From Chlorobiota bacterium (GTDB lineage Bacteria; Bacteroidota; Bacteroidia; Bacteroidales; JAADGE01): a DNA stretch of 64,000 nucleotides. Shown here in pieces: positions 33,219 to 42,989 of this stretch (its first letter is position 1; each line of letters opens with the position of its first letter). The notes beneath the pieces are model-generated. The model was not told the origin of the DNA. It worked only from the letters and a program-made list of their open reading frames with translations, and made no database searches. The DNA is taken from the NCBI GenBank assembly GCA_013152535.1, contig JAADGE010000001.1, forward strand, positions 7 to 64,006, given 5' to 3'. Made by a program: the position numbers and the translations under genes.

Positions 33219-34257
33219 CTAAGTCTTGTATGTACCTGTAAACCGGGGAGTTTCTTCCGTCCAAAATTTCTTATTCATAAAAATCATTGGGCTTGCATAG
33301 CCGAAACTCAGGTAGTGGTTTTGTGTTATTTCCTGAAAAATTTCTTGTATGGTTCCGGCACTTCCGGGTGAAAATATAATACCGCCTTTGGCAATGGTGA
33401 GCAATCCGTCTTCGCGAACGCTGTTGGCAAAATATTTGGCAATTTTTGTCGCAAATGGTGTGGGAGGTTCGTGTCCGTAGAGCCACGTAGGAATTCCGAG
33501 ACTTTCGTATTTGTTATTGTTCGGAAATTTGTCAATTATCTGTATCGCAGTATCCATCCAGAGTTTATCTTTGTACACAGGTGCTGTGTCTAGTATGTCA
33601 AAAGCATTTTTTAAATCGTCTGAATTTCTGCCGGCAAACCAAGCACCGACGTGGGTTGCTTCCATTGCACCCGGTCCGCCGCCGGATGTCATCAGATAAC
33701 CGTTTTCGGTTAATTCTTTTGAAAGTTCGACAACCATTTTATAATCTTCGGTATTTCTTGCTAAACTGTGACCGCCCATAATTGCAACCACTTTTTTTTC
33801 GTCGTATTTCGATAAAAAATCGTAAAGAGCATCTGTAATTGAATGGTCGTGCAGGCGGCGGGCAAGGGTTTCCTTTATGCTGTCAGTTTCTTTCCCGGTT
33901 TCAATAAAGTGTTTGTAAACAATTTTGTCAAATGTTAGTTCGTATGTTTCCGGTTTTCCGAGTTCGTATTCGCCGTATAAATCGTTCTTGTCATATAATC
34001 GGTTGGGGTAGATATTATAAGGAACATTTAATTTCGGAAATATGTAATTTTCTTCTTCAATATGATATTTTACTTTTTCGTTCATCGTGGTTCATCGTGC
34101 AGCCAAGAAAGAGACAGTTGCTGAAATAAAATCGAAAAAAATCTTCTTCAAATTCAGTTAAATCAACATCTTGAAAAGCAACTTTATCAATAATATCTCC
34201 CGGTTTTCTGAAAAGGTGCTTCAGTTCTTTTTGGGTTTCGATTTCGGCGTATTTCAT
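33219..34257 (-). pseudogene. LOG-family (TIGR00730/PpnN-like nucleotide N-glycosidase) protein split by a +10-nt frameshift
   Basis: LOG motifs SGGGPGAMEA and PGSAGTIQE lie in 33219..34085. A 66-aa ORF (34057..34257) overlaps the start in another frame. Removing one copy of the 10-bp duplication at 34080-34099 gives a continuous ...FSNCLFLGCTMNEKVKYHIEEE... Confidence 0.8.
34080..34099. repeat. Perfect 10-bp tandem duplication gttcatcgtg x2 (frameshifting lesion in the LOG-family gene)
   Basis: Read directly: tttttc gttcatcgtg gttcatcgtg cagcc. Confidence 0.95.
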
Positions 34258-34682: not shown

Positions 34683-34708
34683 CCGTGCCACGCTGCAGCG
34701 TGGCACGG
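34683..34708 (+). repeat. REP-like 26-bp perfect palindrome, copy 1
   Basis: ccgtgccacgctgcagcgtggcacgg with flanks tat...ta, 19 nt downstream of the stop of the 34728..37289 gene. Confidence 0.9.
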
Positions 34709-37289: not shown

Positions 37290-37353
37290 TATTTGTTTTT
37301 ACGGTTACGGAATAATAACGTATAAATTTGTGATTTGTTACATTTTATATATT

Positions 37354-37401
37354 ATCCGTGCCGCTACATAATGAACCGTGCCACGCTGCAGCGTGGCACG
37401 G
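37354..37401 (-). repeat. REP-like palindrome copy 2 (37376-37401, inverted orientation) preceded by a truncated REP half (37354-37368)
   Basis: atccgtgccgctaca-taatgaa-ccgtgccacgctgcagcgtggcacgg-at. Confidence 0.9.
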
Positions 37402-37427
37402 ATTTGATTACGGGTTTGGTTAATATG

Positions 37428-38321
37428 TTATTCCAAATCTTCTAAAATATCTTTCGTAAATTTTGCCAAAGGTCGTTTATGAACTTCATCGTCCGAGATA
37501 TAATTACCGAAAATAATTCCTTTCAGTTGCTCAAAATTTTTAAATAAAGTTCCTTCATACTGTTTATAAAGAGTTTCAAGGTAGTCGTCCGAATACATAT
37601 ATTGTTTTTTTATGAGTTCAAGAGCAATGTCCGAATGTTTTTCGTAGATATCATTTAATCTGAAAGTTGAAATTGTATTTTTTGTTTTAATATCTTCATT
37701 ATCGTTTTCTTTAAGTTCAATTCTTATTCCTTTCGTTGAATGATAAAAACTCGGTTTAACAATTTTTAAATGAAATTTTGCACGTGAATTAAAATCATCT
37801 TCATAGGGGTGCAAGTGTTTTTCTTCGTAAAAATCCTTTGTTGTTTTAAATTTGCTGTTACATATTGAACAAGACGGAATTAAGTTGTAAAAAGATAATG
37901 ACAGAAACGGATATCGTGATTTATCATAAAAATGGTCAAAAGTTGCCAAAACTCTTGCTTTTTGTTTTTTTGTGTCTTCAAATTTAAATATATATTCTCT
38001 GTTGCAATAGGGACAAACAGTAATCTCTAAATTATTGATAAAATCAGAACCAAATTTATTTATAAATTTAGTATAATGATTTTTAATAATTTTTTTTGCG
38101 AATATAAATTTTGCTTTATTATAGTTATTTTTTTCATATTTATACAGCATCTTATTTAACTCAACAGGTCTTGCTTTTATTAAAAATTCAAAATCTCCAT
38201 TATAAATATCTTTGAAAAATAAAAAAGACTGTCTTATTCTATTATTATTGATAATAGATTTTACTTTTTTATAATGTTCATTTACTATATCATCAATATT
38301 TGAATGTGTAATAACTATCAT
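37428..38321 (-). CDS. Zinc-finger HNH nuclease (PtuB-like / HNH_5-TIGR02646-like) with N- and C-terminal extensions
   Basis: Core C103-P-Y-C106 ... D129-H130 ... N146-L ... C151-S-I-C154-N155-x-K (VCPYCNREY...TFDHFYDKSRYP...YNLIPSCSICNSKF). Very AT-rich coding sequence. Confidence 0.7.
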   Translation of the reverse strand: MIVITHSNIDDIVNEHYKKVKSIINNNRIRQSFLFFKDIYNGDFEFLIKARPVELNKMLYKYEKNNYNKAKFIFAKKIIKNHYTKFINKFGSDFINNLEITVCPYCNREYIFKFEDTKKQKARVLATFDHFYDKSRYPFLSLSFYNLIPSCSICNSKFKTTKDFYEEKHLHPYEDDFNSRAKFHLKIVKPSFYHSTKGIRIELKENDNEDIKTKNTISTFRLNDIYEKHSDIALELIKKQYMYSDDYLETLYKQYEGTLFKNFEQLKGIIFGNYISDDEVHKRPLAKFTKDILEDLE

Positions 38322-38338
38322 TATTATTTAAGGTTTAT

Positions 38339-38364
38339 CCGTGCCACGCTACAGCGTGGCACGG
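38339..38364 (+). repeat. REP-like palindrome copy 3 (centre variant ctACag)
   Basis: ccgtgccacgctacagcgtggcacgg, located between the ATPase stop (38381) and the HNH start (38321). Confidence 0.9.
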
Positions 38365-38380
38365 TTTTAAAGTAACAAAA

Positions 38381-40348
38381 TTATTTTTTATCGTCTTCTA
38401 ACAAATTAATTTTTTCTTGTATTTCTGTTATTTGTTTTTTTAAATCATCAATATCGTCAAGTTTTCCCAATCGTTTATTATTCAGCATTTTTTGAAGTTG
38501 ATTTTTTATAATGGGTTCTCCTATGATGTTAATGATTTTTTGTGCTTCATCGTTGTTTTTTATTTTGCTTTCTTTTTTATCGTTAAGATAATCAATAACA
38601 TCTTGTATTTTTTCTTCGGCAAATTTACCGATTAAACCGTCTTGCATAAAAAACGCATTTGAAAATAATGTATGAATATTTGCCCCGAAAGTTTCTTTTT
38701 GTTCTATTTCGGGGATTACTTTGCAATTTCCTGTTTTCTTATCTTTTTCAAGAAACATTATGTGTTTTTCCGGTAAATCAGAAACAATGAAGGGAGAGTG
38801 TGCCGTAATGATTAATTGAACGGGTTTATCAAAAATTAAAGGTAAAACTTTTGTGAGCAAATAAATATTTTGTTTTGACCATTCCGGATGTAAATATAAA
38901 TCTATTTCATCAATAAAAACTAGGTATTTTTCAAAATTAATTTTTCCATTATTTTTTTCTTTTTGCACTTCAATATCTATTAATTCTTTTGCTTCAAGCA
39001 TTTTTGAAAATAAAGTAATAAATGCTAATTCTCCGGAACTTAACCCCCAGTTAAAATACAAGTAATTATTAATTTCAGGGTTATATTTTAACGTTTCTTT
39101 ATAAATCTTAATAATTTCACTAAAAAACTCCCTTGGGATTTCAAAGTTTATAAAGTCTTCTGATATATTATTAAATATAATTTTATCTGTTTTTATTTTT
39201 TTTATAAAATGCAACATTTTCGAAAAAGCATTTAAATTATTTTCATCAAAAAAGGTTTTACTTTCTTTCAAAAATATTTCATAAGTAGCTGTTTGATTAT
39301 TGATTAAATCATAAACAGCATTAATATATTCAAAATAATCTGTAAGTAAACGAGAGTCTGCTTTTATCAGTGTTTCTAGTTCTTTTTTCTTTTCTTTAAA
39401 CGTATTATTTTTAATAGAATTAAATAAATCTCTAATATCTGTAAGTAGATTTCTAATTTGGTTTTTCTCTGAATCTGTATTGTTATCAGGATTTAAATTA
39501 TTAAAAATTGATTTTACTTTAATTTCAAAGGATAAAACAAAAAAAATAGAAAGTAATACTATTATTAATTGCTCTTGTTTAGTATCTGTTTGTATTTTTC
39601 TATATATTTCATAATATATCTGCGATTCTCCTACCTGTAAATTTGTGTTCAATACAAATATGTTTGATGATATTGTTATGTTTTTTATTCCGTTTTTTAT
39701 TCCGACATATTTTAATATATGTTTTGAAAGTTCCGATTTATTAAGGAATTTATCAATACTTATAAGTTCTTTAAGCCAATATTCTCTTAAAACATAAAAG
39801 TTGTTTCTATTAGAAATTTTCTCTTCAATTTTTCTTAAAATATAATTTGTCGAAACATTTATTTGTGTCGAATAAATTCCTTTTGGGTTAAAATATGTTA
39901 TATTCGGACTAAAAGTATTTGATAGATATATACTTGCAATGCTTGGTTCAGGTAATTCTTTATTTAGTCCTCTTTCAGTAAAGAAAGGAATACATTTAAA
40001 CGGAGTGTGTATAGAAATTTTATTATGTAAAATAATAATTTCATTTTGTAAGTTTAAGACAACAAAATATTTTAAATGATAATTTCTTATCCATTTTGAT
40101 AAAAATTCTAATAAACTGCTCTTTCCGCTTCCGTTTTTTCCGACAATTCCGGTAATATTTACAATATTATCGCCGAAAAAATTATCGGGTAAATCATATT
40201 TGTTTGGGGTATATTTTAGTTCACCGCCGGTTATTTTTTCGTTGTCGTCTTCTTTTGGGATAAACTCAAAATAATGTTTCGGGCTGAAATTAAAACCTTG
40301 TAGTTTGATGTTTTTATAATTTTCTATCCAAATGTATAATAGTTCCAT
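38381..40348 (-). CDS. ABC/SMC-type ATPase (AAA_15/AAA_21-like, PtuA-like)
   Basis: Walker A GKNGSGKSS (aa 70-78), then a ~350-aa helical insert. Signature-like LSSGELAF, Walker B YLVFIDEIDLYLHPEW, H-loop ITAHSPFIVSD. Confidence 0.75.
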   Translation of the reverse strand: MELLYIWIENYKNIKLQGFNFSPKHYFEFIPKEDDNEKITGGELKYTPNKYDLPDNFFGDNIVNITGIVGKNGSGKSSLLEFLSKWIRNYHLKYFVVLNLQNEIIILHNKISIHTPFKCIPFFTERGLNKELPEPSIASIYLSNTFSPNITYFNPKGIYSTQINVSTNYILRKIEEKISNRNNFYVLREYWLKELISIDKFLNKSELSKHILKYVGIKNGIKNITISSNIFVLNTNLQVGESQIYYEIYRKIQTDTKQEQLIIVLLSIFFVLSFEIKVKSIFNNLNPDNNTDSEKNQIRNLLTDIRDLFNSIKNNTFKEKKKELETLIKADSRLLTDYFEYINAVYDLINNQTATYEIFLKESKTFFDENNLNAFSKMLHFIKKIKTDKIIFNNISEDFINFEIPREFFSEIIKIYKETLKYNPEINNYLYFNWGLSSGELAFITLFSKMLEAKELIDIEVQKEKNNGKINFEKYLVFIDEIDLYLHPEWSKQNIYLLTKVLPLIFDKPVQLIITAHSPFIVSDLPEKHIMFLEKDKKTGNCKVIPEIEQKETFGANIHTLFSNAFFMQDGLIGKFAEEKIQDVIDYLNDKKESKIKNNDEAQKIINIIGEPIIKNQLQKMLNNKRLGKLDDIDDLKKQITEIQEKINLLEDDKK

Positions 40349-40375
40349 TTTGTTTTGTTTTAATTTGTTTTTCTA

Positions 40376-40401
40376 TCCGTGCCACGCTGCAGCGTGGCAC
40401 G
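40376..40401 (+). repeat. REP-like palindrome copy 4
   Basis: ccgtgccacgctgcagcgtggcacgg with flanks tat...tt, 16 nt after the RAYT stop. Confidence 0.9.
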
Positions 40402-40417
40402 GTTTGCTCACTTTAAA

Positions 40418-41008
40418 CTACCAAATGTGTCTTAATTCATTATCATCCGGTTTATACAATGTCTGATATTCCAAATTATCTTTATCGTAATTTATAATTT
40501 CTTGTGCCAAATTTATATTACATAAACTTCCTGTTCGTAAACCTGCATGGTCTTTAAAAGAGGAGAATTGCCAATCGGAAACTTTGGATACAAGTTTAGC
40601 TTCAAACGGATTTCTGTGAATATAGTGAAAACAGGTTACGGCATATTTGTTTGTATTAACTTGGTACAGACATTTTGATTTTGTATTTTGTCTGAACAGA
40701 GAACCGCTTAAATTTTCTTGTTTGTTAATTGCCTGTGAATATTGGCTTAACAAAAGCCGTAAATTTTCCGAAAATTGACTTGCTTCTTGTTTGCGTTTTT
40801 CTGCTTGTTTAATTGTTCTGTCGTTTGCAGCAATCATAATGTGAAAATGATTAGGCATTAAACACCATGCGAGAATATCGGAAACCGGCATTAAATATTT
40901 TCTGATTTTTTGAATAAAAAACAGATAATTTTCATGCGAGAAGAATATTTTTTGATATTGATTCCCCGTATTGTAAATATGATATATTTTGTTTTCTTCA
41001 AAAAACAT
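40418..41008 (-). CDS. REP-associated tyrosine transposase (RAYT; IS200/IS605-like HUH Y1 enzyme)
   Basis: HUH motif in LMPNHFHIMI (H54-F-H56). Catalytic Tyr motif FHYIHRNP. Size of 196 aa. Flanked by inverted copies of the palindrome. Confidence 0.8.
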   Translation of the reverse strand: MFFEENKIYHIYNTGNQYQKIFFSHENYLFFIQKIRKYLMPVSDILAWCLMPNHFHIMIAANDRTIKQAEKRKQEASQFSENLRLLLSQYSQAINKQENLSGSLFRQNTKSKCLYQVNTNKYAVTCFHYIHRNPFEAKLVSKVSDWQFSSFKDHAGLRTGSLCNINLAQEIINYDKDNLEYQTLYKPDDNELRHIW

Positions 41009-41022
41009 ATTGCTGTTATTAA

Positions 41023-41048
41023 CCGTGCCACACTACAGCGTGGCACGG
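41023..41048 (-). repeat. REP-like palindrome copy 5 (variant, inverted orientation)
   Basis: ccgtgccacactacagcgtggcacgg with flanks aa...at, 9 nt after the citF stop and 14 nt upstream of the RAYT start. Confidence 0.85.
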
Positions 41049-41057
41049 ATACATCAA

Positions 41058-42617
41058 TTACTCAAACTTCTTCAATTTCCTGACAACGTCAATTACCGTT
41101 CCGTCAACCCATTTTATTGCGGCGATTATTTCGTCGGTAAATTCGGGTTTTTGCGGTTTACCGCATATTTTTTCGGCTTCGTCTTTCAGTTCTTGTATGG
41201 TTTTTATCGGTAAACCGGAATTTTTGCTTGCTTCGATTAAATCTTTTCGTAAAGGATTTATCGCAATACCGCGCTCGGTAACGATAACGTCAATAAGCTC
41301 GCCCGGTCCGACAAGTGTTGTAACTTCATCTACAATAACCGGAATACGATTGCGGAAAAGAGGCAAGGGGAGGATAACGGTTTTGCTGAACAAGCAGTTT
41401 TGCCAACCGCCGATACCGTGCATCAATAAACCGTCTGAATGTGTAACCACGTTGCCGTTAAAATTTACGTCAACTTCCGTTGCTCCGAGAATAACAACAT
41501 CAACCATTCCGGCAAAGTTGCCTTTGCCGTGGTAGTTGTAGCTCGTAAACGGGCTTGTCCAAGTGTGGTTCGGGTTTTCACGCATTGAACGTACGCCTTC
41601 GAGGTCGAAAGTTTGTCCGTCAAGAATGTAGTCAATTAAACCATCTTCGAGCATTTCTACGAGATATTTGTTGCTTCCGCCGCGTGCAAAACGTGCTTTT
41701 ATGCCTTTTTGCCGCATAATGTCGCCGAAATATTTGCTTACGGCAAGTGATGTTCCGCCGGCACCTGTTTGGAAGGAAAATCCGTTTTTTATAATGCCGG
41801 TTGCTTCACAAAATTTTGCGGTCATTTCGGCAAGCAGTAACCTGTCAGGGCTCTTGGTTATTTGCGTTGTTCCCGAAACGATTTTATCCGGGTCGCCTGC
41901 TTTATCTACTTTTACTACGTAATCAACGTAATTTCCTTGAATTTGCCACGGCACGCAGGGAAAAGACACAAGATTATCCGTAACAACTATTACTTTATCG
42001 GCATATTGCGAGTCGGCAAGGGCAAAACCGAGCAGCCCGCTTGCCGATGTACCGGTAAGTCCGTTTGCGTTTCCGAAAGGGTCGGCGGTTCCGGCGGCAA
42101 TAATTGCGATGTCTATTTTCACTTCACCATCTTGCACGGCTTGATAGCGTCCGCCGTGCGAACGAAGTATTGCCGTTCCTTTCATTTTTCCTTCGGAAGC
42201 AAATCGTCCGAGAGGTCCGTTCATACTGCCTTCTATACGTTGTATTGTTCCGTCTTCAAGATAAGGAATAAGATGTTCGTGGCAGGGAAACGATGCCGAA
42301 GGAAACCAGCGTAAATATTTTATACCTAATCCTTTGGCAATGTCAAAAACTTGGTTCATAATTAAATCGCCGTTTCTGAAATGATGATGAGAAGAAATTG
42401 TCATACCGTCTTTAAGTCCGGCTTTTATAAGGGCTTCTTTAATGTTATTTACAAGTTTGTTTCCGTCCGGCGGATAATCGGCATTTGTAGAAATTATTGG
42501 TGCGTGTTTTCTGCCTTCGGGTTTATATTTTCCTACACCTTGATACGGAATTTGTGTTTCTCCGTTAACTTCGGTCGGGACTATTCGTCCTGCTGCGTTT
42601 TTTATTAGTTTTGACAT
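41058..42617 (-). CDS. citF: Citrate lyase alpha subunit / citrate CoA-transferase family protein
   Basis: 519 aa with CitF-type motifs SSHHHFRNGD, LRSHGGR and QTGAGG. No citD or citE next to it. Confidence 0.75.
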   Translation of the reverse strand: MSKLIKNAAGRIVPTEVNGETQIPYQGVGKYKPEGRKHAPIISTNADYPPDGNKLVNNIKEALIKAGLKDGMTISSHHHFRNGDLIMNQVFDIAKGLGIKYLRWFPSASFPCHEHLIPYLEDGTIQRIEGSMNGPLGRFASEGKMKGTAILRSHGGRYQAVQDGEVKIDIAIIAAGTADPFGNANGLTGTSASGLLGFALADSQYADKVIVVTDNLVSFPCVPWQIQGNYVDYVVKVDKAGDPDKIVSGTTQITKSPDRLLLAEMTAKFCEATGIIKNGFSFQTGAGGTSLAVSKYFGDIMRQKGIKARFARGGSNKYLVEMLEDGLIDYILDGQTFDLEGVRSMRENPNHTWTSPFTSYNYHGKGNFAGMVDVVILGATEVDVNFNGNVVTHSDGLLMHGIGGWQNCLFSKTVILPLPLFRNRIPVIVDEVTTLVGPGELIDVIVTERGIAINPLRKDLIEASKNSGLPIKTIQELKDEAEKICGKPQKPEFTDEIIAAIKWVDGTVIDVVRKLKKFE

Positions 42618-42644: not shown

Positions 42645-42989
42645 TTATAAAGTTGAAAGTTCAAGCCAATATTCGGCGGCTCTTCTGAGATGCGGAATAA
42701 CAACAGAACCGCCGACTAACACGGCAACTGAAAATATTTCATACATTTCTTTATCGTTGACATTAAGATTCTTACATTTTTCCAGATGATATTTAATACA
42801 ATCATCACAACGCAAAACCATTGATGTTGCCAAACCAAGCATTTCTTTTGTTTGTGATGACAACGCACCGTCTTGATAGGTTTTCATATCCAGATTGAAA
42901 AGCCGTTTTATCGCTAAATTATCATGAGATAAAATCAGTTTGTTCATTTTTTCGCGATATTCGTTAAATTCCTTAATTATATTACTCAT
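42645..42989 (-). CDS. Carboxymuconolactone decarboxylase/AhpD-like family protein
   Basis: 114 aa, all-helical, with the CxxC-type motif RCDDCIKYH. Confidence 0.7.
   Translation of the reverse strand: MSNIIKEFNEYREKMNKLILSHDNLAIKRLFNLDMKTYQDGALSSQTKEMLGLATSMVLRCDDCIKYHLEKCKNLNVNDKEMYEIFSVAVLVGGSVVIPHLRRAAEYWLELSTL

What the first reader, a model, noticed from the sequence alone, without database searches (positions are those of the whole stretch)
37428..40348. AT-rich two-gene ATPase + HNH nuclease cassette (Septu/PtuAB-like candidate defence module with atypical features)
Seen: a 655-aa protein with Walker A GKNGSGKSS and a ~350-aa helical insert. It also has an ABC-signature-like LSSGELAF, Walker B YLVFIDEIDLYLHPEW and H-loop ITAHSPF. 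Its stop is 59 nt upstream of a 297-aa protein. That protein's core, CPYC...DH...NL...CSICNxK, is a zinc-finger beta-beta-alpha-Me (HNH) nuclease motif. Both genes are far more AT-rich than their neighbours. My hand count on single 60-nt lines gives roughly 17-23% G+C here versus about 50% in citF, so this is only indicative. Established: AAA_15/21-type ATPase plus HNH pairs define Septu (PtuA/PtuB) and retron-linked PtuAB anti-phage modules. Inference: this is a horizontally acquired defence-type cassette. Three features are atypical. The nuclease has ~100-aa N-terminal and ~130-aa C-terminal extensions with no motif I recognise. The two genes are separated by a GC-rich REP hairpin. The pair lies directly downstream of an HUH/Y1 enzyme gene, so a three-component system is an alternative reading.
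Basis: partly seen in the sequence, partly recalled or inferred. Interest (0 to 1): 0.8.

Follow-up and report, generated by a model that had tools for sequence, protein, structure and literature searches.

The report
Septu-like ATPase–HNH defence gene pair
This is an intact two-gene ATPase-plus-nuclease cassette from an already catalogued, Septu-related family of candidate anti-phage systems; it sits in a 3.8-kb stretch that a sister genome lacks, beside an unrelated REP/RAYT repeat element, so it is a fairly ordinary defence module, not a new kind of system.

Summary
Two intact minus-strand genes (655-aa ABC-type ATPase, 297-aa zinc-finger HNH nuclease) carry all the stated motifs, with a 59-nt gap holding a GC-rich hairpin. 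Both match PADLOC candidate system PDC-M62 over their full length (A 5.6e-87, B 5.3e-70). They match canonical Septu PtuA/PtuB only weakly and partially, and fall far below NCBIfam equivalog cut-offs. Predicted structures nevertheless find solved PtuA (top 33 hits) and PtuB (top 6 hits) first. In 80 genomes with an HNH homologue, 74 have the ATPase directly upstream (the other 6 are truncated), usually overlapping by 4 nt. None has the HUH/Y1 gene and no third gene is conserved. A sister contig (CitF 93% identical) has citF and the DUF5686 gene 95 nt apart, so the window carries a 3.77-kb insertion. The "atypical" features are either typical of the family (nuclease N- and C-terminal domains, long ATPase insert) or belong to a separate REP/RAYT element whose palindrome fills every intergenic gap here. 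Verdict: a stand-alone Septu-family module and a new member of a known kind. Its function is inferred and untested. GC contrast was overstated (24.4% against a 32.6% gene mean).

The parts
38381..40348 (-). PtuA-like ABC-type ATPase (PADLOC PDC-M62A), 655 aa: N-terminal beta-rich lobe with Walker A (K76), roughly 165-430 helical insert, signature LSSGE (436-440), Walker B D480-E481, H-loop H517, and a conserved C-terminal helical extension (about 553-654)
   Evidence: ORF. PDC-M62A E 5.6e-87 over residues 1-652; PtuA1 2.3e-20, partial. Pfam AAA_21 47 bits, cut-off 27. AF2 model pLDDT 81; Foldseek top 33 PDB hits are all PtuA chains, best E 2.4e-9. Invariant motif residues in 85 homologues.
37428..38321 (-). 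PtuB-like zinc-finger HNH nuclease (PADLOC PDC-M62B), 297 aa: N-terminal helical domain (about 9-98), CxxC...DH...N...CxxCN beta-beta-alpha-metal core (100-158), small beta sheet (181-205), helical C-terminal domain (211-296)
   Evidence: ORF. PDC-M62B E 5.3e-70 over residues 15-297; PtuB1 1.8e-9. Pfam HNH 24 bits, cut-off 21.4. AF2 model pLDDT 78; Foldseek top 6 PDB hits are all PtuB chains, probability 0.90-0.99. Invariant C103, C106, D129, H130, N146, C151, C154, N155 and the C-terminal R283-P-L...K290-D.
38339..38364 (.). REP palindrome inside the 59-nt ATPase-HNH gap. It is an insertion specific to this genome and separates two genes that normally overlap.
   Evidence: In 66 of 69 homologous loci the gap is 20 nt or less, median -4 nt. 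REP absent from all 82 other loci checked.
37376..37401 (.). REP palindrome 26 nt downstream of the HNH stop codon; terminator-like on the minus strand; marks one end of the inserted segment
40377..40402 (.). REP palindrome between the RAYT stop and the ATPase start; inverted relative to the copy at 41023
40418..41008 (-). REP-associated tyrosine transposase (RAYT), 196 aa, HUH motif H54-F-H56, catalytic Y129 in YIHRNP. It is a neighbour of the defence pair, not a component of it.
   Evidence: NCBIfam REP_Tyr_transpos E 5.6e-14 (52 bits, cut-off 80). Homologues named RayT. Flanked by inverted REPs. 0 of 80 homologous pairs have it.
41023..41048 (.). REP palindrome (2 mismatches) between the citF stop and the RAYT start; marks the other end of the inserted segment
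37290..41057 (.). 3.77-kb segment (RAYT + ATPase + HNH + four REPs) present here but replaced by a 95-nt spacer in a sister contig
   Evidence: L083: CitF 93% identical, then 95 nt, then the DUF5686 gene; no REP, RAYT, ATPase or HNH.
34683..34708 (.). Fifth REP copy, 19 nt downstream of the DUF5686 gene and outside the inserted segment

Best explanation
A stand-alone, two-gene Septu-family anti-phage module of the subfamily PADLOC lists as candidate system PDC-M62. By analogy with solved PtuAB complexes, the ATPase (PtuA-like ABC ATPase) binds ATP and oligomerises into a scaffold. Its C-terminal helical extensions hold the HNH nuclease (PtuB-like) through the nuclease's helical C-terminal domain, in a quiescent state. 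A phage cue then activates or releases the nuclease. The nuclease cuts nucleic acid (supercoiled-DNA nicking and/or cleavage of a host tRNA, as reported for E. coli Septu and retron-Eco7) and blocks phage replication, probably at a cost to the infected cell. Shown here: gene integrity, conserved catalytic residues, family membership, obligate A-to-B synteny with co-divergence, PtuA/PtuB-like predicted folds, and absence of the segment from a sister genome. Inferred: the complex, the trigger, the substrate and the defence phenotype. The adjacent RAYT and the REP hairpins are a separate genomic repeat element. One REP copy has landed between the two normally overlapping genes. It may alter their expression ratio, but it is not part of the mechanism.
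For: Both proteins match PDC-M62A/B over their full length (5.6e-87, 5.3e-70). PtuA1/PtuB1, PDC-M01B, NCBIfam PtuA/PtuB and TIGR02646 are the next, weaker relatives. PDB sequence search finds only PtuA chains for the ATPase (1e-7 to 1e-5). Foldseek gives PtuA for ranks 1-33 (E 2.4e-9 to 1.7e-5) and PtuB for ranks 1-6 (probability 0.90-0.99, 175-252 aligned columns of targets 205-234 residues long). The ATPase gene is directly upstream and co-oriented in 74 of 80 loci across Bacteroidota, Campylobacterota, Bacillota and others; the other 6 loci are truncated. The median gap is -4 nt. The two proteins co-diverge (Spearman rho 0.60, p 1.6e-6). The HNH motif is intact in 53 of 54 and Walker A in 53 of 54. 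A B. thuringiensis megaplasmid pair hits the same best models and shows the same weak relation to PtuA1/PtuB1. In the B. cereus group PADLOC calls the same gene pairs both Septu and PDC-M62 (PMC11811056). A homologous pair lies beside type I R-M genes and a reverse-transcriptase gene, and the closest homologue lies beside a SIR2/pAgo-like gene. Empty site in L083. PtuAB mechanism: PMC12819146, PMC13376987, PMC13096335.
Against: I found no published experimental test of PDC-M62, so defence is inferred from homology and context. Similarity to canonical PtuA/PtuB is distant: NCBIfam PtuA 44 bits against a cut-off of 500, PtuB 18 against 150, TIGR02646 25.8 against 52. Foldseek TM-scores are low (0.27-0.50), and the PtuB E-values (0.02-0.09) are not significant on their own. 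In this window the pair is not in a defence island; its neighbours are housekeeping genes. The REP insertion breaks the usual gene overlap, so normal expression here is not guaranteed. The reported substrates of PtuAB (DNA or tRNA-Tyr) disagree between studies and may not transfer to this subfamily.
Confidence: 0.8

Rival explanations
1. A three-component system in which the HUH/Y1 enzyme works with the ATPase and the HNH nuclease.
For: The three genes are adjacent and co-oriented. The same hairpin lies in every gap between them. All three are missing from the sister contig L083.
Against: No RAYT homologue in any of the 80 loci that hold the pair. No conserved third gene of any kind; the largest flanking cluster covers 13 of 69 loci, lies on either side and is generic. 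In one genome that has both, the RAYT lies among housekeeping genes and the pair lies elsewhere in a defence island. The protein matches REP_Tyr_transpos (5.6e-14), and relatives are flanked by their own cognate REPs. RAYT G+C (30.5%) is typical of the host, while the pair is 24.4%.
Confidence: 0.03
2. The whole 3.77-kb REP-bounded segment is a mobile unit. On this view the RAYT, like an IS200/IS605 TnpA acting on hairpin ends, moved the defence pair as cargo into the citF-DUF5686 spacer.
For: The sister contig lacks the RAYT, the REPs and the pair together. The two outermost REP copies (37374-37403 and 41021-41050) have the same orientation and sit at the two ends of the segment. All five REP copies in 64 kb lie within 6.4 kb of the RAYT.
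Against: The unit is not seen anywhere else (0 of 80). Different G+C in the RAYT and the pair points to separate origins. A fifth REP lies outside the segment, beyond a native gene. The REP sits between two genes that overlap in 66 of 69 relatives, which suggests REPs invaded an existing cassette. From my own knowledge, RAYTs are regarded as domesticated and are known to act on REPs, not on cargo. The exact junctions could not be defined at nucleotide level.
Confidence: 0.07
3. A non-defence function: a selfish or homing HNH endonuclease with an accessory ATPase, or an SbcCD/Rad50-like DNA-repair pair.
For: The ATPase also resembles Rad50/SMC heads (Pfam SMC_N and AAA_23, weak; Foldseek ranks 43 and 49). 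Phage HNH endonucleases share the core fold. The local neighbours are housekeeping genes.
Against: PtuA and PtuB outrank all repair and homing proteins. Viral matches cover only the roughly 60-160-residue HNH core, with E of 0.1 or worse. The partner is an HNH nuclease, not an Mre11-type phosphoesterase. The distribution is patchy and accessory, with a presence/absence difference between sister genomes and occasional defence-island neighbours. There is no intron, intein or homing context.
Confidence: 0.08
4. A retron-associated (type I-A, Ec78/Ec83-like) PtuAB effector pair.
For: The NCBIfam retron PtuA/PtuB and TIGR02646 models are among the hits, and the best structural matches include retron I-A complexes.
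Against: No reverse-transcriptase ORF next to the pair. No Rfam hit and no structured ncRNA other than the REPs. Scores are far below the equivalog cut-offs. No RT gene is conserved in the flanks of homologous loci.
Confidence: 0.02

Closest known systems
PADLOC candidate system PDC-M62 (A + B), as also found on B. cereus-group megaplasmids
   Same: Both proteins match the A and B models over their full length (291 and 235 bits). The architecture is the same: an ATPase of about 600-650 aa directly followed by an HNH protein of about 300-340 aa with N-terminal and C-terminal helical domains. The best-hit models are the same as for a B. thuringiensis pair.
   Different: Only 31-38% identical to the Bacillus proteins, and the first ~95 residues of the nuclease do not align with them by BLAST. 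Here the two genes are separated by a 59-nt REP-containing gap instead of overlapping. The host is a Chlorobi/Bacteroidota-group MAG.
Stand-alone Septu PtuAB of E. coli (PDB 8EE4, 8EE7, 8EEA, 8SUX)
   Same: An ABC-type ATPase plus an HNH nuclease encoded as an A-to-B pair. PtuA is the best PDB sequence hit (1e-7). PtuA and PtuB are among the top structural hits. The nuclease has a helical C-terminal domain and the ATPase has a C-terminal helical extension, the two elements that form the A-B interface in PtuAB (PMC12819146).
   Different: Sequence similarity is confined to the Walker B to H-loop region of the ATPase and to the HNH core. The ATPase is about 190 aa longer (655 against 465), with a much larger helical insert. 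The nuclease is about 60-70 aa longer, with an extra N-terminal helical domain. The signature motif is LSSGE here, whereas stand-alone Septu carries Leu at the position of Ec78 PtuA's Gln361 (PMC12819146). TM-scores are only 0.2-0.5.
Retron type I-A (Ec78/Eco7, Ec83) PtuAB effectors
   Same: The same ATPase-nuclease effector fold; these give the best Foldseek hits for both proteins.
   Different: There is no reverse transcriptase, ncRNA or msDNA partner here. NCBIfam equivalog cut-offs are missed by a wide margin (44 against 500 bits; 18 against 150).
PADLOC PDC-M01 (another ATPase + HNH candidate) and ATPase-based systems with a non-HNH partner (PARIS AriA, AbiL)
   Same: The nuclease hits PDC-M01B models (down to 3e-16). 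The ATPase hits AbiLi (4e-19), and AriA appears in Foldseek.
   Different: These scores are far below those for PDC-M62. From my own knowledge, the PARIS and AbiL partners are Toprim/OLD-type proteins, not HNH.
REP/RAYT elements (for the neighbouring gene and the hairpins only)
   Same: An HUH-Y1 protein flanked by inverted copies of a GC-rich palindrome that also occurs in nearby intergenic regions. A 72%-identical RAYT in another contig is flanked by arrays of a related palindrome.
   Different: The score is below the NCBIfam cut-off (52 against 80 bits). Only five REP copies are seen in 64 kb, and all lie within 6.4 kb of the RAYT.

Membership tests
PADLOC PDC-M62 (candidate two-gene system) | Protein A matches a PDC-M62A profile over essentially its full length | tested here: met
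   PDLC04734 E 5.6e-87, 291 bits, residues 1-652 on profile 1-591 of 597; seven further PDC-M62A models also hit.
PADLOC PDC-M62 (candidate two-gene system) | Protein B matches a PDC-M62B profile over essentially its full length | tested here: met
   PDLC04743 E 5.3e-70, 235 bits, residues 15-297 on profile 25-324 of 328; three further PDC-M62B models also hit.
PADLOC PDC-M62 (candidate two-gene system) | A and B are adjacent and co-oriented, with A upstream | tested here: met
   59-nt gap on the same strand. Same order in 74 of 80 homologous loci; the other 6 are truncated.
PADLOC PDC-M62 (candidate two-gene system) | Demonstrated anti-phage activity | not testable with these tools
   No experimental test of PDC-M62 was found in the searchable literature. 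It is described as an unpublished candidate system (PMC11811056).
Septu (PtuAB) | PtuA: ABC-type ATPase (AAA_15/AAA_21) with intact Walker A, Walker B and signature motifs | tested here: met
   Pfam AAA_21 47 bits, above the cut-off of 27; AAA_15 19.9 bits, below its cut-off of 32.1. K76, S437, G439, E481 and H487 are invariant in 85 homologues. PADLOC PtuA1 models 2.3e-20 and weaker, partial coverage.
Septu (PtuAB) | PtuB: HNH (beta-beta-alpha-metal) nuclease with catalytic His and Asn | tested here: met
   Pfam HNH 24 bits, above the cut-off of 21.4. D129, H130, N146, N155 and four Cys are invariant. PADLOC PtuB1 1.8e-9.
Septu (PtuAB) | ATPase fold closest to solved PtuA | tested here: met
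   Foldseek ranks 1-33 are all PtuA chains, E 2.4e-9 to 1.7e-5, probability 1.00. TM is only 0.23-0.36 because of the different helical insert. phmmer against the PDB returns only PtuA chains below 1e-4.
Septu (PtuAB) | Nuclease fold, including the helical C-terminal domain, closest to solved PtuB | tested here: inconclusive
   Foldseek ranks 1-6 are all PtuB chains, with probability 0.90-0.99 and 175-252 aligned columns. However, E is 0.018-0.09 and TM 0.39-0.50. The profile search of the PDB gives only 9n69_F at E 0.024.
Septu (PtuAB) | PtuB C-terminal domain docks on a pair of PtuA C-terminal extensions (A-B complex) | not testable with these tools
   No multimer prediction is available. 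Both regions exist and are conserved (ATPase F554...G610-E-P...L618; nuclease R283-P-L...K290-D). The interface is described in PMC12819146.
Septu (PtuAB) | NCBIfam PtuA (NF041760), PtuB (NF041761) and TIGR02646 curated cut-offs | tested here: not met
   44.2 bits against 500; 18.1 against 150; 25.8 against 52.15. These models are built on the retron Ec78 type, so failing them argues against equivalog status, not against family-level relatedness.
Retron type I-A (retron-Septu) | Adjacent reverse transcriptase and msr/msd ncRNA | tested here: not met
   No RT ORF in the flanks. No Rfam match except two chance-level hits.
REP/RAYT element (neighbouring gene only) | HUH and catalytic Tyr motifs; match to REP_Tyr_transpos | tested here: inconclusive
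   H54-F-H56 and Y129-IHRNP are present. NF047646 E 5.6e-14 across the whole profile, but 52 bits is below the cut-off of 80. Homologues are annotated RayT.
REP/RAYT element (neighbouring gene only) | Gene flanked by inverted copies of a palindromic REP that recurs in intergenic regions | tested here: met
   Copies at 40375-40404 and 41021-41050 are reverse complements of each other. Five copies in the window against 0 expected. A related RAYT is flanked by a related REP.
Hypothetical three-gene RAYT-ATPase-HNH system | Co-occurrence of the three genes in other genomes | tested here: not met
   0 of 80 loci. The RAYT and the pair are unlinked in a genome that has both.

The most novel reading that the evidence does not exclude
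The REP-bounded 3.77-kb segment (REP-RAYT-REP-ptuA-like-REP-ptuB-like-REP) is a single mobile unit. On this reading a REP-associated tyrosine transposase, normally regarded as domesticated, carried an anti-phage module as cargo into the citF-DUF5686 spacer. A weaker version is that REP invasion of the operon retunes the ATPase:nuclease expression ratio. The evidence does not exclude this: a sister genome lacks the whole segment and REP copies sit at both of its ends. However, it is not seen anywhere else and the composition argues for separate origins.
Probability: 0.07. Interest if true: 0.65.

Novelty: new member of a known kind. Interest (0 to 1): 0.25.

Why it matters
The practical value is modest. 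The locus can be annotated confidently as a Septu-family (PDC-M62-type) candidate defence pair instead of "hypothetical protein + AAA ATPase". It also documents a clean presence/absence difference between sister genomes. The subfamily is large: about 1,700 clusters at 50% identity at E <= 1e-30, spread across Bacteroidota, Campylobacterota and Bacillota. I found no direct experimental test of it. It differs from structurally characterised PtuAB by an extra N-terminal domain on the nuclease and a much larger helical insert in the ATPase. These are plausible sensor or regulatory elements, so a representative would be a reasonable target for testing how Septu-type systems diversify their triggers. 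This particular copy adds no new principle. The REP/RAYT association is a curiosity and would matter only if cargo mobilisation were shown.

Tried and rejected
(1) Three-component system with the HUH/Y1 gene: rejected. 0 of 80 co-occurrence, unlinked elsewhere, and the gene is a RAYT with its own REP.

(2) Any conserved third gene: none found by clustering 805 flanking ORFs from 69 loci.

(3) Retron association, structured RNA or a tRNA integration site: no RT gene, no Rfam family, and no tRNA in the whole window.

(4) Defence-island context in the window: rejected. The neighbours are CitF, a DUF5686 outer-membrane protein, CMD, PAP2, patatin and an S8 peptidase, with only generic weak PADLOC hits.

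(5) REP as an intrinsic terminator between the genes: the hairpin is very stable but lacks a U-tract. Only the copy after the HNH gene looks terminator-like. The sigma-70 promoter scan is uninformative for this phylum.

(6) Viral look-alikes of the nuclease: only generic HNH cores, with E of 0.1 or worse. One weak hit in 50,697 phage records.

(7) Reading the original Septu papers (PMC6387622, PMC12318543): not held. I therefore could not check whether the originally validated Bacillus Septu belongs to the PDC-M62 subfamily.

(8) My first ATPase motif regex was too strict (19 of 54). I recounted each motif separately.

(9) Nucleotide-level definition of the insertion junctions: the flanks are too diverged.

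(10) Quantifying defence enrichment among neighbours of homologous pairs: the output gives per-family counts only and there is no background, so I report examples only.

Full report
**Observation.** The minus strand carries three consecutive intact ORFs: 40418..41008 (196 aa), 38381..40348 (655 aa) and 37428..38321 (297 aa). The ATPase has Walker A GKNGSGK76SS, signature LSSGELAF (436-443), Walker B YLVFIDEIDLYLHPEW (475-490) and H-loop ITAH517SPF. The nuclease has C103PYC, D129H130, N146L and C151SIC154N155SK. The gap between the genes is 59 nt. It holds a perfect 11-bp-stem, 4-nt-loop hairpin (dG -23.3 kcal/mol, z -5.3).

The composition claim is right in direction but overstated. Both genes are 24.4% G+C, the lowest of 40 genes in the window. 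The other genes average 32.6 +/- 4.4% with a minimum of 25.7%, so z is about -1.9. citF, used as the contrast, is 43.9% and is the most GC-rich gene in the window.

**What the two proteins are.** Against PADLOC-DB, both proteins match the two components of candidate system PDC-M62 over their full length. The A component scores E 5.6e-87 (residues 1-652) and the B component E 5.3e-70 (residues 15-297). Canonical Septu models come next, but they are much weaker and partial: PtuA1 2.3e-20 covering mainly residues 473-598, PtuB1 1.8e-9, PDC-M01B 3e-16. Pfam gives AAA_21 (47 bits, above its cut-off) and HNH (24 bits, just above its cut-off). NCBIfam's retron-type PtuA, PtuB and TIGR02646 models are hit but fall far below their curated cut-offs: 44 against 500, 18 against 150, and 25.8 against 52.

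A sequence search of the PDB returns only PtuA chains for the ATPase (8ee4_A 1e-7, plus retron Ec78/Ec83 PtuA), aligned over the Walker B to H-loop region. The nuclease family profile finds only the retron I-A HNH subunit, weakly (9n69_F, E 0.024).

**Structure.** The AlphaFold2 model of the nuclease (18-sequence alignment, pLDDT 78, pTM 0.77) has four parts: an N-terminal helical domain (9-98), the beta-beta-alpha core (100-158), a small sheet (181-205) and a helical C-terminal domain (211-296). Its six best PDB matches are all PtuB chains, including E. coli Septu 8eea_G. Probability is 0.90-0.99 and 175-252 columns are aligned. However, E is only 0.02-0.09 and TM 0.39-0.50. The next hit, McrA, has probability 0.14.

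The ATPase model (85 sequences, pLDDT 81, pTM 0.81) has an ABC/SMC-type head, a long helical insert of lower confidence (about 165-430) and a C-terminal helical extension. Its best 33 PDB matches are all PtuA chains (E 2.4e-9 to 1.7e-5). PARIS AriA, Rad50 and cohesin heads follow.

In solved PtuAB complexes the helical C-terminal domain of PtuB is clamped by the C-terminal extensions of a PtuA dimer (PMC12819146; PMC13376987). The nuclease's "unrecognised" C-terminal extension is therefore most simply the PtuA-docking domain. This is an inference, because I could not predict the complex.

**Are the "atypical" features atypical?** No. The N-terminal domain and the C-terminal domain of the nuclease both align to the PDC-M62B profile (profile positions 25-324 of 328). 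C-terminal residues R283, P284, L285, K287, K290 and D291 are invariant in 18 homologues. A B. thuringiensis megaplasmid pair (617 aa + 337 aa) hits the same best models at 629 and 362 bits. It relates to PtuA1/PtuB1 just as weakly (8e-18, 2.5e-8) as the window's pair does. A survey of the B. cereus group reports that PADLOC assigns the same gene pairs to both "Septu" (244) and "PDC-M62" (203) (PMC11811056). PDC-M62 is therefore best seen as a long-form branch of the Septu family.

The family is large. The HNH profile finds 1,720 representatives (clusters at 50% identity) at E <= 1e-30 and 4,198 at E <= 1e-10.

**Synteny.** I fetched 80 genomic loci encoding HNH homologues. They come from Campylobacterota, Bacteroidota, Bacillota and a cyanobacterial relative, among others. 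In 74 of them an ATPase homologue lies immediately upstream on the same strand. The other six are truncated less than 1 kb upstream. In 66 of 69 measurable loci the genes overlap or abut, with a median gap of -4 nt. The two proteins co-diverge (Spearman rho 0.60, p 1.6e-6, n = 54). The HNH motif is intact in 53 of 54 and Walker A in 53 of 54.

Clustering 805 flanking ORFs found no conserved third gene. None of the 80 loci contains a homologue of the 196-aa protein.

Some homologous pairs have defence genes as neighbours. One sits beside HsdM/HsdS, a 1303-aa reverse-transcriptase protein, Toprim and RlaP. The closest homologue (64-67% identity, a Bacteroidetes MAG) sits beside a SIR2/pAgo-like gene. 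In this window, however, the neighbours are housekeeping genes.

**The HUH/Y1 gene and the hairpins.** The 196-aa protein matches NCBIfam REP_Tyr_transpos across the whole profile (E 5.6e-14, 52 bits, below the cut-off of 80). It has H54-F-H56 and Y129-IHRNP. Many homologues are annotated RayT.

The 26-nt palindrome CCGTGCCACGCTGCAGCGTGGCACGG occurs five times in the 64-kb window against 0 expected. The copies are at 34683, 37376, 38339, 40377 and 41023, that is, in every intergenic gap from the DUF5686 gene to citF and nowhere else. The copies on either side of the RAYT gene are in inverted orientation, which is the canonical RAYT arrangement.

The palindrome is absent from all 82 other loci checked. 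A 72%-identical RAYT in another contig is flanked by arrays of a related palindrome, ATCGTGGCACGTTGCAACGTGCCACGAT. In a genome that has both a RAYT homologue and an ATPase-HNH pair, the two are in unrelated places. The RAYT/REP element is thus a separate entity, and the three-component reading is refuted.

**Acquisition.** A metagenomic contig from a close relative, L083, has the order patatin, PAP2, CitF, DUF5686, with 95 nt between the citF stop and the DUF5686 start. Its proteins are 93% (CitF), 69% (DUF5686), 69% (PAP2) and 74% (patatin) identical to the window's. It has no REP anywhere in 12.8 kb. The window therefore carries a 3.77-kb segment (about 37290..41057) that the relative lacks.

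This fits an insertion by horizontal acquisition, given the patchy cross-phylum distribution and the lowest G+C in the window, although a deletion in the relative is not formally excluded. I cannot tell whether the RAYT and the pair arrived together. The different G+C (30.5% against 24.4%), the fifth REP outside the segment, and the REP lying between genes that normally overlap all favour separate events, with REPs spreading locally afterwards.

**Mechanism (inferred).** The following is by homology with PtuAB. The ATPase binds ATP and forms a dimer-based oligomer that holds the nuclease inactive. Infection then activates the nuclease. Reported activities for relatives are ATP-inhibited nicking of supercoiled DNA and infection-dependent cleavage of the tRNA-Tyr variable loop. 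Both the ATPase motifs and the HNH motif are required for defence (PMC12819146, PMC13376987, PMC13096335).

The extra N-terminal domain of the nuclease and the enlarged ATPase insert are candidates for subfamily-specific sensing or regulation. This is speculation. The intergenic REP removes translational coupling and could change the A:B ratio, which is also speculation. No retron partner is present.

**Verdict.** This is a real, intact, horizontally variable two-gene module. It is a clear member of the catalogued candidate family PDC-M62 and a distant relative of Septu PtuAB in sequence and predicted structure. It is a new member of a known kind. The defence function is inferred, and I found no published test of this subfamily. 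Interest is low to moderate.

Noticed in passing
window 34683-34708, 37376-37401, 38339-38364, 40377-40402, 41023-41048; RAYT at 40418-41008: A REP/RAYT element. Five copies of a 26-nt GC-rich palindrome all lie within 6.4 kb of a RAYT gene, with none in the other ~58 kb of the window. The RAYT is flanked by inverted copies. A 72%-identical RAYT in L163 (gene at 1855-2445) is flanked by arrays of a related palindrome, which suggests that RAYT and REP co-evolve in this lineage.
   Followed up: partly
window 42645-42989 versus L083 2157-2191: The 114-aa carboxymuconolactone-decarboxylase-family (CMD) gene between PAP2 and citF is absent from the sister contig L083, where PAP2 and citF are about 30 nt apart. 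This is a second small presence/absence difference in the same neighbourhood.
   Followed up: no
L167 1-5755 and 6001-8696: In a JGI metagenome contig, a homologous ATPase-HNH pair (4-nt overlap) lies next to type I R-M genes (HsdM, HsdS), a Toprim/zinc-ribbon protein and a 1303-aa protein with an RVT_1 reverse-transcriptase domain. RlaP nucleotidyltransferase genes lie downstream. It looks like a defence island and might contain an uncharacterised RT-based system.
   Followed up: no
L081 245-2302: On B. thuringiensis plasmid p_4F5-1, the PDC-M62-type pair is preceded by a 685-aa 'DUF4435 domain-containing protein'. This may be another defence gene.
   Followed up: no
L001 3537-4889: The closest homologous pair (64-67% identity, a Bacteroidetes MAG) has a divergently oriented upstream neighbour of 450 aa that hits PADLOC pAgo and SIR2-PNTD models (E 6.5e-21).
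   Followed up: no
L023, L045, L063 (gaps of 664, 973 and 208 nt between the ATPase and HNH genes): Three of 69 homologous loci also have the normally overlapping genes pulled apart. This could be due to insertions or to errors in my ORF calling. I did not examine what lies in these gaps.
   Followed up: no
window 41058-42617: citF (citrate lyase alpha subunit) is the most GC-rich gene in the window (43.9% against a 32.6% mean). Its protein is 93% identical in the sister contig, while neighbouring proteins are only 69-74% identical. The gene is unusually conserved.
   Followed up: no
window 1-64000: ARAGORN finds no tRNA or tmRNA gene anywhere in the 64-kb window.
   Followed up: no
window 33219-34085: A 288-aa protein matches the SLOG cluster4 family (LDcluster4, 27.3 bits, just above its cut-off). 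It lies two genes away from the cassette, on the far side of the DUF5686 gene. It has no PADLOC hit and no homologue in the sister contig L083.
   Followed up: no
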